Below are positions 31,496 to 37,000 of a stretch of DNA of 64,000 nucleotides, in pieces; positions within the stretch are counted from its first letter, which is position 1, and each line of letters starts with the position of its first letter. Source of the DNA: Pseudovirgaria hyperparasitica (Eukaryota); NCBI GenBank assembly GCA_010093815.1, contig ML996583.1; one strand, given 5' to 3'. The notes under the pieces were generated by a model. The model did no database searches and was not told the origin of the DNA. It saw nothing but the letters and a program-made list of their open reading frames with translations. The translations under genes were made by a program, and so were the position numbers.

Positions 31496-32499
31496 CTAAG
31501 CCTCTGACTCAAAAGCAGTGGGGAAGCGCCTCATGTTGGACTCAAGGTTACCCTTGTTCCTCAGGAACTGAACGTATGCACCATCGACCTTGACACGACC
31601 CGCCTTGCGCTCCTCGACATATTGGTCACGGTTGAGCTTGGTGAAACCCCATTTCTTGGAAACGATAATCTTCTGGCGACCGGGGAACTTGTACTGGCAG
31701 CGACGGAGAGCCTCGAGAGCGGTGGCACGATTGGTATCCTTGGTGCGGACGGACAGGAGAATCTGGCCAATGTTGACACGGGCGACACTGCCGTTGGGCT
31801 TGCCCCAGGCACCACGCATTCCGGTTTGGAGTCTATCGGCTCCGGCGCACGACAACATCTTGTTGATTCGGACAACGTGGAACGGGTGGGCGCGGACACG
31901 CATGTGAAAGTTGTCCTTTCCGGCGATCTTGACGAGGTACCTTCAAGCATTCTGTTAGTCATGCTGTACCTCAAAATTCCATGATGACGTCGGCCATTCT
32001 TTGGGCACTCTCTATGCCGTCTTTAAATATTTCTTGTTCTGTGCTTTTGCCACATGTCATCCATAGCCGCATTTCTCTTTATTTTCCAGAATGGTTCCCT
32101 TATGTAGGTTCGGGTATGAAACTCACTTGTTGGCGCAAATACGAGCGGCTTCAAGAGCTTCGGAGCTCAACTGTTCGTATTCGTTGGAGACGAGGTGGAT
32201 GCAGAGGGGAAATTCATCGACGTTCGCACGCTTGCGACCAAGATCAAAGATGCGAATCTTCGGGTCAGGTACACCACGGTTGAACCGCGACTTTGGGTAC
32301 GGCTGCAGTCACAGATTATTAGCCTTTGATTCTGAGGTTGTCACTGAAGATGATCGTGAATCTTCGTCCTGGCGTGTCCATCCGAAGGGCTACCTCTTGC
32401 CGGCGCGGTGTCCAATCGACCTCAAGCAGCTTCAGGTTGTAGATAGGTGCCTACCTTGTTCTTGCAGTAACGGTAACATCTTGCAGGGCGACGGGCCAT
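31496..32499 (-). CDS. RPL10: 60S ribosomal protein L10 (uL16). Exons 32499-32455, 32302-32127, 31940-31496
   Basis: [39 protein letters not shown]...[24 protein letters not shown]. Confidence 0.97.
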
Positions 32500-32902
32500 T
32501 TTGTCGGTATTGATGGCGGTCGTGAGGTGGTGGAATGACGAGGACGAAACAGAGGAGCAATGGTGGGCTTTTTGGACGTTCATTGAATTTCTAAGCACAC
32601 TCGCTTAGCGAGCCGAATCGGGCAGCGGGGGCGTAACTGTCCGAACGAGCTCGCTTACTGTTTGGCGAGCAAGATATGGAAGAAAGAGAACGCCGCCGTC
32701 TCACATCGAAAGGCATATGTCATCATGAAGAATCGAGAGTCATAGCATAGAGTAGTTTCTTGAGTCACAAACCGTGTGGCGGTTTTTCATTGGTATCTAC
32801 ATTGGCCTACACAAATGACATTCCATGCGCCCGATTGATATGCCCCGGATTTTGAGCGCCGAGCGTCGAGCGCTTCGTACGCTGGCCTTTTCCTATTCAC
32901 AT

Positions 32903-33545
32903 CTATGCCTGACCAGCGCTGAGAATATCAGAGTCACCAGCGTCAATGATGGCCATAGTTCCGCAACGGAAGAGTTTACCACACGCAGTTCCGAGTTCGA
33001 TACTGTAAGCACAGTTATGTCAGCCGTTTGATACCCTCCAAAGTCACAAGACTCTTTCTCAGGGTATGCCCTCCCGAGACGTGCGCGCCTGTTCTCAGGG
33101 CTATAAAGACCATAAGGTGTTGGATATGCTTACTTGTTGCCAGAGAAGTGGTGGACATTGGTCTTGGACAGCTACAAAGGATTACTACTACGTCCATTCA
33201 ACTATTGCGATTTGAATCGTACCATGCTGTAGTATTCCAATTCTGACTTCCTCAAAGGAGGGCAGTTGCCAGCAATGATTACAAGCTTGGCCTTTCCTGA
33301 GCGGAGCCTTCTCGCTGTCAGTCTCAAATCTTGTTCATCGCGCGATAGGTGCTTCGACTAATTCGAGTGCGGAGTTCGGTAGACGTACGACTTGAGGGTA
33401 CTCTTGTAGCCAAGAGTGACTGTGACAGATTAGGAGACGTTCAAGATTTGAAGGTCGCGATGACCATACCTTTACCAGACTTCATCACCAGAGCCAGACG
33501 GCTGTTGATGGAGTCGGCGGACTTCTTGCTCTTCTTGATTGCCAT
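32903..33545 (-). CDS. RPL30: 60S ribosomal protein L30 (eL30), 109 aa. Exons 33545-33470, 33419-33389, 33307-33223, 33171-33134, 33002-32903; not in the ORF track
   Basis: Spliced translation: [109 protein letters not shown]. All four introns are GT-AG. Confidence 0.97.
33031..33101 (-). promoter_or_regulatory. Two tandem kink-turn hairpins in RPL30 intron 4 (33101-33068 and 33067-33031)
   Basis: GCCC-UGA-GA-A-C-AGGCG-cgca-CGUCU-c-G-G-GA-GGGC and AUACCC-UGA-GA-A-AGAGUC-uugu-GACUUU-G-GA-GGGUAU. Each has a canonical stem, a 3-nt bulge, tandem G.A/A.G pairs and a second stem. Confidence 0.85.
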
Positions 33546-33608
33546 CTCTGCGTGTTCAGAATTTGTAAATGAAAGTTCTGAAGGGTTTAACTGATTATAC
33601 GCTCCGGT
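33542..33608 (-). promoter_or_regulatory. L30-binding kink-turn spanning the RPL30 5' UTR and start codon
   Basis: ACCGGAGCGU (33608-33599) pairs with ACGCAGAGAUGG (33553-33542). This nearly matches the S. cerevisiae RPL30 autoregulatory site ACCGGAGUGU...ACGCAGAGAUGG. Confidence 0.88.
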
Positions 33609-34036
33609 GCAGGATCAGAAGTTCACGGTATAGTTTTGAAGATGTAAATTGGTGTTGTGTGGGATCTTAGCGGACTTGGCATGCACTAGTGCGAAAGGCT
33701 TGGATGATTCAGGCATCAAGGCACGCACGACTCTGGAAAATGTAAGCCATCGTCCTAGCGACTAAGTTCTTCTTTACTGACTCATCCAGAGTATGGCCAT
33801 CAGCGCAATCAGTTGTAAGATTTCGTACATTCCCCAAATGAAAAGAGTTGATTAATATTTATCTTTTCTCGTGGCAGTCGAGATGCAGATTGTATATTCG
33901 TGAAACGCCTGGTGAGATGCAACCGTAATCCCTCAAAGATGCAAGACCGCAAGACCGCCCTGTACCCATACACCTCGCTAATTGACATAATTCCATAAAC
34001 GACAAACCATACGCCCAGCCAGACTTGGCGTCAGTA

Positions 34037-37000
34037 TCAGCCGCCGCCGTTATCACTCTCTATCCTTTCTGCTGTGTCAAATCTTGCAATCTTAGGCCTC
34101 CGCGTCGTGAGTCTTGGCTCTGGACTGCTATCCTCTCCTGCTTCGCGTTTTGCTTTTTCCATGACCTCCATCGTGATATCACGAGCTTGCCGTTCGATCG
34201 TCTTGTCTTGAACAGCCTCACTAGGATGCGCTAGGTACGTCTCGATTAGAGCCTTGAGTGTTTGTGCTCTGTTCAAAGTTTAGCTCGTGTTCAATGAGAT
34301 CAGATTCACGTGCACGCGTGATAGAACATCAGGGTATGTGACTTTTGGGGGATGACACAGTAAACGGCGTATCCGAGTACAGTGTAATACACAAAGTGAC
34401 AGGAAGGACTCACCGGACAGGCTTTGCCAGGTAATTATTCATTCCTGCTTCAAGACATTTTTCTCGGTCACCTTGTATGGCAGAAGCAGTCATCGCGATA
34501 ATCAATACATTCTTCACAACCGGGTCCGGGTGTCGGCGAATATCGCGAGTAGCGTCGTAGCCATCCTTGACGGGCATTTGGCAGTCCATAAGGACTAGGT
34601 GGAACGGTTTTCCCTCCCGACTTGCTCGTTCCAAAGCCTCGATGGTCTTGCTCCCATCTACGAATGCTTCGCATTGGAAGCCAAGCTTAGCCACAAATGA
34701 GATGGCGATGCGTTGGTTGATTAGGTTGTCCTCTGCTATGCAGATGCGTAGTTGATCTCGAGGGATCGTGGACAGATCAATTATACCGGGCGCCTGTTGA
34801 CCCTCCTGAGCAGTTGGTGTAGAGAACTTAGCCATAGGATTCACGTCTCGTCCCCTCGCTTCCGTCTCTGTCTCTGTCACCTTTTTGAAGGTTATAGCGA
34901 ATGAGACAGTCGTGCCTACACCTGGAGTAGAGTCCAGCCAGATTTTGCCATCCATAACGCTTACAATCGCTTTACAAATCGATAACCCAAGGCCGGTCCC
35001 TCCATATCCTCGCGAGCTTGAACTCTCAATCTGGCTGAATGGTAAAAAGAGCTTATTTTTCTGGTCCTTCGAGATACCGATGCCAGTATCGGCGACACTG
35101 CAAGTAATGTCCACGGTGTCGTTTGTTTCGGAGATCACAGAGGCGGAAACTGTTACTGCTCCCTCCGTAGTGAATTTGTAGGCGTTCGACAGTAGGTTCA
35201 TTAGCACTTGGTGTAGGCGTATGCCGTCTGCTAGCACGAAAATGTCTTTCAGACGATCATCTAATAGTACCCTTGTTTTCAAGCCACGCTCTTCATTGGT
35301 ATATGATAAAGCCCTTACAACCTCGGTAATGGTCTCCGTAAGATTTAAAGAAGTCACAATCATATTCATTTTGCCAGCTTCAAGCTTGCTGAAGTCCAGG
35401 AGGTCGTTGATGATGGACAAGAGAAGATCAGCACAAGTTCGGATGCTGTCAGCATATGAGTTCTGCTCGGTCGTCATTTGGCTAGCCTTTAACAGCTCCG
35501 ACATGCCAATGACGCCGTTCAATGGTGTCCTTAGTTCATGTGAGACGTTGGCCAGAAATAGTGATTTTGCACGTGCAGCCTCTTCTTTCAACTGCACGTT
35601 TCGAATTGCTATAGCTTCGGCGATTTTGGCCTTGTTTTCCGACTCGCGAGCTTGCGCAAGTGCTTGTTTTTGCATGTCCAACATGGCAACGTTGCTCGCA
35701 CTGACCCGCTCTATACGCTTGAACATCAATGCGTTTGCCAAGGAGATACCGATTTGGTTAACAAGAAGTCCAAGAACCGTAACATTACGCTCTGTAAAGG
35801 AGTTTGGTGGTCCCTCGCAGTATAAACTCCCAAGTAAGACGTTATTGCCATGAAGTATTGGCATGCATATAACGGCCTTGCCTTCAGGATTGCGACGCAG
35901 GTATGCTTCCGGCACATTCGAAAACCTTTCATCCTCTATGATATTGGGCACAAAGACGATCTCCTTGAAGCGAAGTGAGTAGAGAGTGACCTGGCGAGCG
36001 ATTTGATCATCGACGGATTGGAGCGGTTGTCCTTTGGGAAACGTCGTAACTCCGTCAGGGGTACCAACGGTGGCTACAGTCCATTCGGTTTGGTCTTCGA
36101 CCACGATTGCAGAAACATCAGCTGTCGTTGATTCTAGTATAATTTCGGTCATCTTAGATAGTAACTTGTCCTCTTTCAGCTCAGATGATAGGACCTGGCT
36201 GGCTTCTAAAATTCCTTGAAGGTCTATCACATCGAGGCCTGATGCAGAGAGTGTAGCGTTATTAGACATGACCGGTAGGGAAGCTTCTGCTTTCCTTCCA
36301 TTAGGATACTGAGGAGACAACCATGCAGTTGTACGGTCGGCGGACGTCTCTAAGCCTAGTTTGTTATTCTCCTGAGCTTCATTCTGGCTCAAGCGAAATT
36401 CCGTATTATTCGTGTCGATTATGGTGGTCTGGCATTCTGCATCAGCTGTACTCAGGCTCGAATAGCCCTGCAGTAGCCACTCGTATTGGTCTTTTAGTTG
36501 TGTGCACTTGCCTAATGCAGATATTCTGCGATAGGATGATATAGCTTCCACCATCATGCGTTTGGCAGGTCTTTTGGCTCCTTGACGGATGAGAGAACCA
36601 GCGTAGAGTTCGAATGCAAGGCCTTCATCCAAGGTGAAATTGTTCAGTTCAGCGTCGTCGAGGGCTGCTTCATAGCTTCTCATCGCCTCTGAGACCTGAC
36701 CAGAGACATCGGCTATCTCGGCAGATAGCAAGGCTAGCCATAGTCGATAGTTTATGTCGTTGAATAACGTTGACGAGCGAATTCTCTCGTAGTAGCCGCG
36801 AATCTTGGTGAGTAGAGTGCCGCGCATGCTGCTCATGCCTTCGCTACTGACATGCGTCTCACCATTCTCCGCCCTCCGTCGTAAGAGGCCGATGTAGCTT
36901 AGACTCAGGAAGAAGAGATTGGAGTATGTATATCTCATGCAGAACAGACTCTCCATCGTCGTGAGAAGTCTCTCCCCGGTCGCAATAGCCTCTTCAAAGT

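What the first reader, a model, noticed from the sequence alone, without database searches (positions are those of the whole stretch)
33003..33133. Tandem kink-turn cassette fills the last intron of RPL30: candidate L30-controlled splicing switch
Seen: intron 4 (131 nt) holds two back-to-back hairpins totalling 71 nt; without them it would be 60 nt, the usual size here. Both share CCC-UGA-GA-A...G-GA-GGG but have different, still complementary inner stems (AGGCG/CGUCU and AGAGUC/GACUUU), which suggests selection on structure. The second hairpin ends 6 nt before the GCUGAC branch point. Intron retention reads AA|G UAA, an immediate premature stop. Established: eL30 is an L7Ae-family K-turn binder, and yeast L30 blocks splicing of its own pre-mRNA through a K-turn at the 5' splice site. 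Inference: two L30 molecules bind here, perhaps cooperatively, and hinder branch-point use, a different layout from yeast. I recall fungal rpl30-associated RNA motifs from comparative surveys, so novelty needs checking.
Basis: partly seen in the sequence, partly recalled or inferred. Interest (0 to 1): 0.9.

Follow-up and report, generated by a model that had tools for sequence, protein, structure and literature searches.

The report
Conserved kink-turn switch in RPL30 intron
The last intron of this fungus's ribosomal protein L30 gene carries two protein-binding RNA kinks right beside the splicing branch point, a design shared by dozens of related fungal genes and probably used by L30 to throttle its own production.

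Summary
Intron 4 of a minus-strand eL30 gene (33133..33003, 131 nt) is removed exactly as read in RNA contigs. It holds two abutting hairpins with the kink-turn consensus CCC-UGA-GA...GA-GGG.

The element is not private to this genome. A metagenome scan for the eL30 exon-5 peptide returned 112 loci, and 73 have an intron at the same codon junction. Of 60 distinct introns, window included, 56 carry at least one K-turn hairpin and 24 carry two or three. In shuffled introns 55 of 1200 had any.

The branch-point-proximal hairpin forms one family. RNAalifold finds the same fold, 9 of 12 pairs have compensatory changes, and the G.A/A.G core is invariant. A model built from it hits the 64-kb window once, at hairpin 2 (E 1.3e-9). 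The hairpin always ends 3-15 nt before the branch-point motif (median 11).

No Rfam family matches, and I found no paper describing it. The one-paragraph "rpl30 motif" of Li & Breaker 2017 may overlap.

The best reading is an eL30 feedback operator that blocks branch-point use. That would be a new layout of the yeast RPL30 K-turn mechanism. Binding and regulation are untested.

The parts
32903..33545 (-). eL30 (RPL30) coding region. It has five exons: 33545-33470, 33419-33389, 33307-33223, 33171-33134 and 33002-32903.
   Evidence: Translation gives 109 aa. Pfam PF01248 matches exons 3 and 5. PDB hits are named L30/eL30, bar one generic-domain label and one unnamed row. A spliced RNA contig in X4 joins all exons.
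33003..33133 (-). Intron 4, the last intron: 131 nt, GUAAGC...ACAG. It is slid by one base (phase 2) relative to the phase-0 orthologous introns.
   Evidence: Joint 33002|33134 appears in RNA contigs of X4 and X5. Orthologues read ...AAC AAC|GT..AG|ATT GAA.
33068..33101 (-). H1, the distal K-turn hairpin. It reads GCCC-UGA-GA-A-C-[AGGCG-CGCA-CGUCU]-C(bulge)-G-GA-GGGC. The G.A/A.G core is at 33094/33093 and 33073/33072.
   Evidence: Read from the sequence. Folds. It fits the alignment of distal modules, A2. Model R1 does not detect it.
33031..33067 (-). H2, the branch-point-proximal K-turn hairpin. It reads AUACCC-UGA-GA-A-[AGAGUC-UUGU-GACUUU]-G-GA-GGGUAU. The G.A/A.G core is at 33058/33057 and 33038/33037.
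   Evidence: MFE -14.6 kcal/mol, z -4.32. It is the only R1 hit in the window, at 43.4 bits and E 1.3e-9. It is a member of family alignment A1.
33019..33024 (-). Putative branch point GCUGAC, with the branch A at 33020. It lies 6 nt after H2.
   Evidence: Consensus motif read from the sequence. The position matches the orthologues. It has not been mapped experimentally.
33125..33133 (-). 5' splice site GUAAGCAUA. In this genome it can pair over 9 bp with UGUGCUUAC (33013-33005), just before the 3' AG.
   Evidence: MFE fold. No shuffled 3' end (300 shuffles per intron) gave a helix this long in the window. The helix is not conserved: 2 of 55 introns reach p<0.05.
33005..33013 (-). 3' strand of the window-specific 9-bp helix. 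The 3' splice site AG follows at 33004-33003.

Best explanation
The cassette is a conserved cis-regulatory RNA of fungal RPL30. It consists of one to three kink-turn hairpins inside the last intron. The proximal one ends 3-15 nt upstream of the branch point.

The most likely mechanism is feedback by eL30:
1. When eL30 exceeds what ribosome assembly consumes, it binds the K-turn(s) on the nascent pre-mRNA. eL30 is an L7Ae-family K-turn binder.
2. The RNP sits on the stretch just upstream of the branch site that BBP/Mud2 and then U2 snRNP need, so stable branch-point recognition fails.
3. The unspliced RNA is unproductive. In the window retention gives an immediate UAA. In the orthologues it gives a stop or a frameshift. 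Nuclear retention or decay of the stalled pre-mRNA is also possible.

Tandem sites would sharpen the response.

Shown here: the anatomy, conservation, covariation and spacing, and that the intron is normally spliced. Inferred: the 3-D kink, eL30 as the ligand, the direction of the effect and cooperativity.
For: (1) K-turn anatomy in both window hairpins.

(2) Conservation.
- 73 of 112 scanned loci have an intron at the GNN|IELG junction. With the window that makes 60 distinct introns.
- Modules per intron: none in 4, one in 32, two in 20, three in 4. In shuffled introns 55 of 1200 had any.
- Descriptor density is 7.85 per kb inside the intron, against 0.28 per kb on the sense strand outside and 0.15 per kb antisense.

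(3) Structure.
- RNAalifold on the MAFFT alignment A1 returns a C stem and an NC stem around a 6+3-nt internal loop. 7 of 10 pairs are compensatory.
- Named-structure count: 88.5% of cells paired, 9 of 12 pairs changed on both sides, covariation 0.340 against 0.202 in shuffles (0 of 500 reach it) and 0.035-0.102 when slid.
- Distal family A2: 8 of 10 pairs compensatory, 0.542 against 0.246.

(4) Specificity of model R1.
- One hit in the 64-kb window.
- In L001-L100, 70 of 73 hits lie on the sense strand inside this intron, in 64 of 66 loci that have it.

(5) Spacing. From the end of the GGG core to the branch-point motif the median is 11 nt and the range 3-15 (n=55).

(6) The host gene is eL30 itself. 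Yeast L30 binds a K-turn in its own pre-mRNA and blocks U2 binding (PMC11585973, passages). S. pombe Rpl30-1 represses rpl30-2 splicing (PMC4695336, passages). L30 binds K-turns in rRNA helix 58 and in its own pre-mRNA (PMC3706390, passages).

(7) The flipped-out position L3 is A in 29 and C in 22 of 51 distinct proximal hairpins, never U. From recall, Snu13/15.5K prefers U there.

(8) Retention is unproductive in all 60 introns: 53 have an in-frame stop and 7 cause a frameshift.

(9) L110 keeps the K-turn and branch-point spacing (8-9 nt) even downstream of the stop codon.
Against: - There are no binding or expression data of any kind.
- The K-turn fold is inferred from sequence only.
- The G.A/A.G invariance in A1 is partly built in, because the hairpins were picked with a descriptor that requires GA...GA. 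R1 was built from the same loci it then found.
- H1 of the window is weak on its own (z -0.33, no R1 hit).
- Three distinct introns (L007, L045, L106) have no detectable module, so the element is dispensable in some lineages.
- The first NC-stem pairs are almost invariant in sequence: A-U in 49 of 51, A-U in 44 of 51, G-C in 50 of 51. The known yeast site would not predict this, and it could mark another ligand.
- The 3'-UTR location in L110 does not fit a purely PTC/NMD-based output.
- The taxonomy of the metagenome contigs is unknown, and related sequences inflate the covariation controls.
Confidence: 0.6

Rival explanations
1. eL30 does bind the K-turns, but the output is not steric occlusion of the branch point followed by PTC/NMD. 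Binding might instead stall the spliceosome and cause nuclear retention or exosome decay. It might interfere with terminal-intron-coupled 3'-end formation. Or the intron might act as a co-transcriptional landing pad or buffer for eL30.
For: The cassette always lies in the last intron. In L110 it lies in putative 3'-UTR intron(s) of an intronless CDS, where no PTC can arise. S. pombe rpl30-2 is an Mmi1/exosome target (PMC4695336).
Against: The tight 3-15-nt spacing to the branch point is most simply explained by direct interference with branch-site recognition. All 60 coding-region introns give a stop or a frameshift on retention.
Confidence: 0.17
2. The hairpins are bound by another K-turn protein (Snu13, Nhp2, eL8) or by none. 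They would serve constitutive splicing, for example by looping out about 70 nt to shorten the effective distance from the 5' splice site to the branch point, or by recruiting a splicing factor.
For: Any L7Ae-family protein can in principle bind a consensus K-turn. The conserved purine-rich NC stem could be a site for another factor. A few distal modules have a box-C-like GAUGA with U at L3 (L027, L042, L063).
Against: Within the 112 loci and the 64-kb window the element occurs only with eL30 genes. L3 is never U in 51 proximal hairpins. Looping-out needs no invariant G.A pairs. The orthologous introns that lack the cassette are simply short, 60 and 73 nt (L007, L106), so the extra length exists only to carry the hairpins.
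Confidence: 0.15
3. The intron yields a stable small RNA, snoRNA-like or a K-turn-capped intron fragment, that acts in trans.
For: K-turn RNPs protect intronic snoRNAs from exonucleases (established knowledge). Ribosomal protein introns often host snoRNAs.
Against: No Rfam family matches the intron even at E<=10, nor the orthologous loci at E<=1. There is no terminal C/D box pairing and no guide-length spacer; the modules are only 30-50 nt. Only the hairpins and their distance to the branch point are conserved.
Confidence: 0.05
4. The hairpins are chance hairpins in a long intron.
For: The loose pattern CTGAGA..GGAG is not rarer than chance in the window. H1 alone has z -0.33.
Against: The strict pattern gives 2 observed against 0.00 expected. 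The R1 hit has E 1.3e-9. The element is conserved and covaries in dozens of independent contigs.
Confidence: 0.01

Closest known systems
S. cerevisiae RPL30 autoregulatory K-turn (Eng & Warner 1991; Vilardell & Warner 1994; Chao & Williamson 2004; Macias et al. 2008; as summarised in PMC11585973, passages read)
   Same: A K-turn-type purine-rich internal loop lies in the eL30 gene's own pre-mRNA. The expected ligand is eL30. In yeast the affected step is U2 snRNP recruitment, which is the step the branch-point-adjacent layout here would hit directly.
   Different: In yeast there is one K-turn, built from the 5' UTR/exon 1 and the start of the first intron. It includes the 5' splice site and persists in the mRNA, where it also controls translation. 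Here one to three self-contained hairpins lie wholly inside the last intron, next to the branch point, and are absent from the mature mRNA. Locus L067, a budding-yeast-like eL30 gene from the same scan, appears by eye to have the yeast layout, but the MFE fold does not show it.
'rpl30 motif' of Li & Breaker 2017 (PMC5640933; the rpl30 paragraph, the figure legend and methods passages read; figure and supplements not seen)
   Same: [quoted passage not shown] It has 47 examples in 26 species, about two per species.
   Different: It is described as lying mostly in 5' UTRs. It is not called a K-turn, and no intron, branch-point or tandem context is given. I found no conserved K-turn in the 5' regions of the loci here. 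I could not decide whether it is the same element (mislocated by annotation) or the yeast-type 5' element. The alignment is in closed supplements, and Rfam 15 gave no hit on the window region, on 12 orthologous loci or on L067.
S. pombe rpl30-1 / rpl30-2 cross-regulation of splicing (Lemieux et al. 2011, known to me only as cited in PMC4695336)
   Same: An eL30 protein lowers splicing of an eL30 paralogue's pre-mRNA, and the unspliced RNA is degraded in the nucleus.
   Different: No RNA element is described in the passages I read. The regulation acts between paralogues, and the intron position is unknown to me.
Archaeal L7Ae autoregulation through a K-turn in its own 5' leader (PMC5539422, PMC6298567; search listing and abstracts only)
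   Same: An L7Ae-family protein senses a K-turn hairpin in its own transcript.
   Different: Control is translational, the system is archaeal, and no splicing is involved.
Other ribosomal-protein intron structures in fungi (RPL7B, RPS13, RPL22, RPS14B, RPS9)
   Same: These are feedback loops that act by inhibiting splicing of the protein's own pre-mRNA.
   Different: The RNA folds and ligands differ, and none is a K-turn beside the branch point. The screen of A. fumigatus and N. crassa by Gao et al. 2021 has no occurrence of 'L30' in its main text (PMC8216456, term search).

Membership tests
Kink-turn (K-turn) RNA motif | A Watson-Crick C helix, then a 3-nt bulge, then tandem sheared G.A and A.G pairs that open the NC helix. 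| tested here: met
   Window H1 and H2. In A1 the 1b2b and 2n1n positions are GA in 51 of 51 distinct rows, -1b.-1n is C.G in 50 of 51, and the bulge is always 3 nt. This is partly built in by the selection descriptor. RNAalifold independently leaves the 6+3-nt loop unpaired.
Kink-turn (K-turn) RNA motif | Both flanking helices are real, shown by covariation. | tested here: met
   9 of 12 pairs have changes on both sides, and 0 of 500 shuffles reach the covariation score. The distal family shows 8 of 10 pairs.
Kink-turn (K-turn) RNA motif | A sharp roughly 50-degree kink with A-minor contacts in three dimensions. | not testable with these tools
   No RNA 3-D prediction or probing data are available.
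Yeast-type RPL30 autoregulatory element | A K-turn in the eL30 gene's own pre-mRNA. | tested here: met
   gene identity; K-turn.
Yeast-type RPL30 autoregulatory element | Formed by the 5' UTR/exon 1 and the first intron, including the 5' splice site. | tested here: not met
   Both strands of each K-turn lie inside the last intron, 32 nt or more from the 5' splice site and 6 nt from the branch point.
Yeast-type RPL30 autoregulatory element | The element persists in the spliced mRNA and represses translation. | tested here: not met
   The spliced contig lacks the cassette, skipping 33003-33133.
Yeast-type RPL30 autoregulatory element | eL30 binds the element and blocks U2 snRNP recruitment. | not testable with these tools
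   This needs EMSA or in vivo assays. Only the spacing to the branch point is suggestive.
Li & Breaker 2017 rpl30 motif | Associated with L30 genes; a hairpin with a conserved purine-rich internal loop. | tested here: met
   Text description compared with the A1 consensus ...CCCUGAGAAGAAG...CUUUGGAGGG.
Li & Breaker 2017 rpl30 motif | Located mostly in 5' UTRs. | tested here: not met
   Here the element is in the last intron. Descriptor hits upstream of the genes are scattered and not homologous to each other.
Li & Breaker 2017 rpl30 motif | A match to their alignment or covariance model. | not testable with these tools
   Supplements are closed. Rfam 15 gave no hit on the window region, on 12 orthologous loci or on L067.
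Box C/D snoRNA | Terminal box C (RUGAUGA) and box D (CUGA) K-turn, a guide region, and an Rfam match. | tested here: not met
   No snoRNA family hits the intron at E<=10. There is no UGAUGA in the window intron. The modules are 30-50 nt.

The most novel reading that the evidence does not exclude
The K-turn plus branch-point cassette is an ancient, portable eL30-sensing splicing module of filamentous ascomycetes. It stands in for the budding-yeast 5' operator. It has been duplicated or re-invented repeatedly, giving one to three copies of several sequence types that often abut C stem to C stem, which would tune cooperativity. It works by direct exclusion of U2 snRNP from the region just upstream of the branch site. 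That action is independent of reading frame, since in L110 the cassette sits in 3'-UTR intron(s) of an otherwise intronless gene. It would then be a natural, minimal protein-gated branch point.
Probability: 0.4. Interest if true: 0.75.

Novelty: new variant of a known kind. Interest (0 to 1): 0.62.

Why it matters
eL30 feedback on splicing is a textbook case known from budding yeast. How a protein bound at the 5' splice site keeps U2 away is still unclear there.

A second, widely conserved architecture that puts the same kind of K-turn 3-15 nt from the branch point offers a simpler system to test. The questions are whether steric block of the branch site is enough, whether tandem sites give cooperativity, and how the output (NMD, nuclear decay) depends on context.

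It would also show that a ribosomal-protein operator can move within a gene, from the 5' end to the last intron to the 3' UTR, while keeping its ligand. It would add a compact natural part, a K-turn hairpin beside a branch point, to the splicing-control toolbox.

For annotation, it explains why this intron is two to three times longer than its neighbours in many fungal RPL30 genes.

Tried and rejected
- First metagenome scan (exon-5 pattern with an AGY prefix): 0 loci. The orthologous introns are in phase 0, and the window's intron is slid by one base. The second scan, without the prefix, worked.
- Whole genome of the window: not held, so there is no genome-wide count of the motif and no rDNA to compare with the helix 58 K-turn.
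- Earlier scan notes: nothing relevant by place, words or sequence.
- Sequencing runs: no RNA holder listed. X3 and X4 nevertheless hold spliced contigs. No contig covers intron 4 in those runs, but contigs drop rare forms, so this says nothing about retention.
- Rfam: no family on the intron (E<=10), on 12 orthologous loci (E<=1) or on L067 (E<=5).
- 9-bp helix between the 5' splice site and the 3' end of the window intron. I considered it a closing stem that L30 might stabilise and rejected it as a general feature, because only 2 of 55 introns exceed shuffles.
- K-turns in the 5' UTRs of the same genes: the upstream descriptor hits are scattered and unrelated.
- K-turn-like descriptor hits across the 3' splice site and exon 5 in the 'VGVLSIQDGG' lineage. 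I judged these a by-product of conserved codons and did not pursue them.
- Yeast-type K-turn seen by eye in L067: not recovered by MFE folding (z +0.84), so it stays a lead.
- More of the L110 contig could not be fetched.
- Literature: seven searches found no paper on a K-turn in the last intron of RPL30 in filamentous fungi. Subscription journals and the supplements of Li & Breaker 2017 were not searchable.
Single exons were scanned by reference instead.
Full report
THE LOCUS

The finding lies on the minus strand in a five-exon gene. Joining exons 33545-33470, 33419-33389, 33307-33223, 33171-33134 and 33002-32903 gives a 109-aa open frame. My first model with a 74-nt intron 2 was out of frame, and the correct intron 2 is 81 nt. 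The exon 3 and exon 5 peptides match Pfam PF01248, the L7Ae/L30e family (E 1.3e-6 and 1.8e-4). In a sequence search of the PDB the matched chains (56 and 58 distinct sequences) are named L30/eL30, apart from one generic Ribosomal_L7Ae-domain label and one row named RE25263p. The best-scoring chains include 7r81_e1 and 7olc_Lc. I recall these to be Neurospora and Chaetomium ribosomes, but the output names no organism.

A 407-nt contig in run X4 joins all five exons at exactly these borders. One of its joints is 33002|33134, which skips 131 nt with GT..AG ends on the minus strand. The introns are 50, 81, 51 and 131 nt long.

THE OBSERVATION

Intron 4 reads as follows: a 32-nt 5' part, then H1, then H2, then CAAACG, GCUGAC, and 17 nt ending in AG.
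- H1 is GCCC-UGA-GA-A-C-AGGCG-CGCA-CGUCU-C-G-GA-GGGC.
- H2 is AUACCC-UGA-GA-A-AGAGUC-UUGU-GACUUU-G-GA-GGGUAU.

Each has the full K-turn layout: a C stem, a 3-nt bulge, G.A and A.G, a third A.G, and then a Watson-Crick NC stem closed by a tetraloop.

The evidence for the two hairpins in the window is:
- The MFE fold of the intron forms both hairpins (-41.5 kcal/mol, z -2.39).
- H2 alone has z -4.32, H1 alone only -0.33, and the 71-nt cassette -2.60.
- The strict pattern CCCTGAGAA-N(8-30)-GGAGGG occurs twice in 64 kb, both times here. Zero are expected from 100 shuffles.
- A looser pattern is not significant.
- Retention reads AAG UAA.

RELATIVES

No genome is held for the window. I therefore scanned metagenome contigs for the degenerate DNA encoding ELGTACGKL, which starts exon 5.

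A first pattern demanding an acceptor one base before the Ile codon found nothing. In the relatives the intron sits between codons (AAC AAC|GT...AG|ATT GAA), whereas the window's intron is slid by one base.

By my exon-4 regular expression, 73 loci have a GT..AG intron at the GNN|IELG junction. With the window this makes 74 introns and 60 distinct sequences, 60-214 nt long.

The other 39 loci fall into these groups:
- three chance matches that are not L30 (L008, L048, L072);
- intronless copies;
- other eukaryotic lineages, and a lineage with a short hairpin-less intron one codon earlier;
- L035, whose exon 4 my expression missed but which has the hairpin 27 nt before exon 5.

Upstream intron positions differ widely among the 59 distinct loci. 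The set is therefore phylogenetically broad, and this intron is kept where others come and go.

I did not determine the taxonomy of the contigs. That they are fungal, and that they are filamentous ascomycetes, are inferences from the short introns with CTRAC branch sites and from similarity of the eL30 sequences.

CONSERVATION OF THE K-TURN MODULES

A strict descriptor required a C stem of at least 3 bp, a 3-nt bulge, GA...GA, and at least 4 contiguous NC pairs. It finds a hairpin in 55 of 60 distinct introns.

A version that folds the inner segment with ViennaRNA gives none in 4 introns, one in 32, two in 20 and three in 4. In mononucleotide shuffles of the same introns the counts are none in 1145, one in 53 and two in 2, out of 1200. 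The window is counted there with one module, because the bulged C of H1 fails the filter.

Descriptor density is 7.85 per kb in the intron. It is 0.28 per kb on the sense strand elsewhere in the loci and 0.15 per kb antisense.

Where two modules occur they usually abut, as H1 and H2 do. By my reading of the module coordinates printed, the gap before the proximal module is 0-4 nt, or a shared base pair, in 15 of the 24 multi-module introns.

THE PROXIMAL FAMILY

I aligned 54 proximal hairpins with MAFFT to give A1. Two choices were made in assembling this set:
- L042 was left out because it is identical to L027.
- For L002 I used its upstream, consensus-type module and left out its atypical branch-point-proximal one.

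The consensus is ..GCCC-UGA-GA-AGAAGUC...GACUUUG-GA-GGGU..

RNAalifold, given only the alignment, returns the C stem and the NC stem. It leaves 6 nt on the 5' strand and 3 nt on the 3' strand unpaired, which is the K-turn loop. 7 of its 10 pairs show compensatory changes.

Counting my named structure on 51 distinct rows gives:
- 88.5% of cells paired;
- 9 of 12 pairs with changes on both sides;
- a covariation score of 0.340, against 0.202 +/- 0.014 in shuffles (0 of 500 reach it) and 0.035-0.102 when the partner is slid by 1-3 columns.

Features of the 51 distinct rows:
- L1-L3 is UGA in 19, UGC in 12, AGA in 10, AGC in 8 and AAC in 2.
- L3 is A or C, never U.
- 3b.3n is A.G in 43, U.G in 7 and G.G in 1.

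The GA/GA invariance is partly a consequence of how the rows were chosen.

Covariance model R1, built from A1, behaves as follows:
- It hits the 64-kb window once, at H2 (43.4 bits, E 1.3e-9).
- In L001-L100 (203 kb) it gives 73 hits at E<=1. Of these, 70 lie on the sense strand inside the intron, in 64 of the 66 loci that have it. One is the L035 hairpin and two are noise at E 0.36 and 0.74.
- It recovers the two introns the strict descriptor had missed, L084 (a G-to-U change in the C stem) and L092.
- It finds nothing in L007, L045 or L106.

The model was built from these same loci, so only the window result and the absence of hits elsewhere are independent.

THE DISTAL MODULES

The upstream hairpins are more diverse. 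The commonest type is CCC-AAC-GA-C-[stem]-C/U-GA-GGG. Its inner stems differ completely between contigs but stay complementary, for example CAGAC/GUCUG, CAAACC/GGUUUG, GAGAUGC/GUGUCUC and CAGUUC/GAAUUG.

In an alignment of 13 such modules plus the window's H1 (A2), 90.3% of cells pair. 8 of 10 pairs have changes on both sides, and the covariation score is 0.542 against 0.246 (0 of 500).

Other types resemble the proximal hairpin (L023, L026, L052, L082, L070, L098). L027, L042 and L063 have three modules, the middle one with a box-C-like GAUGA.

This variety suggests that extra K-turns were gained more than once. That is inference.

SPACING AND CONSEQUENCES

From the end of the GGG core of the proximal module to the start of the best branch-point motif (CTRAC, CTAAT, CTTAC and similar), the median is 11 nt and the range 3-15 (n=55). 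The branch A lies 10-29 nt from the 3' splice site.

If the intron is retained, 53 of 60 distinct introns have an in-frame stop. The other 7 shift the frame of the last 31 codons.

The 9-bp helix that the window can form between its 5' splice site and the 3' end of the intron is not general. Only 2 of 55 introns beat shuffles. In 10 introns the branch motif itself is (G)CUUAC, which is complementary to the 5' splice site. I note this but did not test it.

A TELLING VARIANT

L110 is 626 nt of a 21-kb contig. Its eL30 CDS is uninterrupted from ATG to TAA, yet R1 hits two hairpins on the sense strand downstream of the stop. They read GUCC-UGC-GA...GA-GGAC (19.5 bits, E 7e-4) and GUCC-UGA-GA...GA-GGAC (24.6 bits, E 2.6e-5).

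Each is preceded by a GTAGGT or GTACGT donor-like site. Each is followed after 8-9 nt by GCTAAC or CCTAAC, and then by an AG. This reads as one or two putative 3'-UTR introns, and the MFE fold forms both hairpins.

There is no RNA evidence, and the rest of the contig could not be fetched. If real, it shows that the conserved unit is the K-turn together with the branch point, not the K-turn together with a reading frame.

MECHANISM

Established knowledge:
- eL30 is an L7Ae-family protein that binds K-turns in rRNA helix 58 and in its own transcript (PMC3706390, passages).
- Yeast L30 bound to its pre-mRNA allows U1 binding but blocks U2 binding (PMC11585973, passages).
- In fission yeast one paralogue's protein lowers splicing of the other (PMC4695336, passages).

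The cassette sits inside the eL30 gene, and the hairpins sit just upstream of the branch site. From recall, this is where U2-associated SF3a/SF3b proteins contact the intron. The simplest model is therefore that surplus eL30 binds the K-turn(s) and prevents stable branch-point recognition. The unspliced RNA is then unproductive or degraded.

The absence of U at L3 argues against Snu13. From recall, Snu13/15.5K needs a U there.

Not shown: the kink itself, the ligand, the sign of the effect and cooperativity. Also unexplained is the near-invariant AAG/CUU stretch in the NC stem.

COMPARISON WITH WHAT IS KNOWN

The element works like the yeast RPL30 operator, but it fails two of that operator's defining features: its position at the 5' splice site and its persistence in the mRNA.

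No Rfam 15 family matches it. Seven full-text searches found no description of it. The fungal screen of Gao et al. 2021 has no occurrence of 'L30' in its main text (term search).

Li & Breaker 2017 list an 'rpl30 motif': 47 examples in 26 species, a hairpin with a conserved purine-rich internal loop, mostly in 5' UTRs. The description fits the hairpin but not the location. I saw neither the figure nor the supplementary alignment, so prior cataloguing cannot be excluded; I put it at about even odds. They also did not connect it with the yeast element, which they cite under its old name L32.

VERDICT

This is a real, deeply conserved RNA element. It is most likely an eL30 feedback operator in a new layout, and so a new variant of a known kind of system. 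The chance that it was listed before without analysis, and the lack of any functional data, keep the score moderate.

Noticed in passing
L110:1-200 (minus strand of the locus): An eL30 gene with an intronless CDS carries two K-turn hairpins downstream of its stop codon. Each lies 8-9 nt before a CTAAC-type branch motif, inside one or two putative 3'-UTR introns.
   Followed up: partly
window 33003-33133 versus L001-L112: The window's intron is slid by one base (phase 2, AA|GT...AG|T) relative to the phase-0 position of the 73 related loci that have the intron. This is why the first scan found nothing.
   Followed up: yes
window 32127-32502 (minus strand): A uL16 (RPL10) gene starts about 400 nt downstream of RPL30 on the same strand. 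Its exon at 32302-32129 matches Pfam PF00252 (E 3e-8). So two ribosomal protein genes sit in tandem.
   Followed up: partly
window 33562-33800: A 7,936-nt RNA contig of run X3 joins spliced RPL30 exons 1-3 to the upstream region. It also skips 33742-33791, an intron with GT..AG on the plus strand. This suggests head-to-head transcripts with overlapping 5' ends, merged by an unstranded assembly.
   Followed up: no
window 33125-33133 with 33005-33013: A 9-bp helix can form between the 5' splice site and the sequence just before the 3' AG. It is absent from most orthologues. In ten orthologues the branch motif (G)CUUAC is itself complementary to the GUAAG of the 5' splice site.
   Followed up: partly
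L027:1366-1397, L042:1603-1634, L063:1603-1634 (minus strands): These three-module introns have a middle K-turn with a box-C-like GAUGA (U at L3), unlike every proximal module.
   Followed up: no
L067, 340-390 nt upstream of the exon-5 match: This is a budding-yeast-like eL30 gene with an intron directly after the ATG. By eye, UUCCG-GA-GUGC in the 5' UTR and GCGC-AGA-GA-UGG|GUAUGG across the ATG and 5' splice site could form the classical yeast-type K-turn. MFE folding does not show it.
   Followed up: partly
L007, L106 (and L045): L007 and L106 are related eL30 genes ('GAKST...RCATMAILDAG') that keep the intron but only as 60 or 73 nt without any K-turn. L045 has degenerate remnants. These look like lineage-specific losses.
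   Followed up: partly
window 31976-32093 (+) and 34427-34518 (+): Weak, sub-threshold Rfam box C/D snoRNA matches: SNORD15-like at 15.1 bits (E 4.4) and Afu_264 at 16.2 bits (E 10). The first contains a UGAUGA box.
   Followed up: no
L034, L049, L058, L073, L087, L101, L105 (3' splice site into exon 5): In the 'VGVLSIQDGG' eL30 lineage the K-turn descriptor fires across the acceptor site and the first 40 nt of exon 5. This is probably a side effect of conserved GAG/GGA codons.
   Followed up: no
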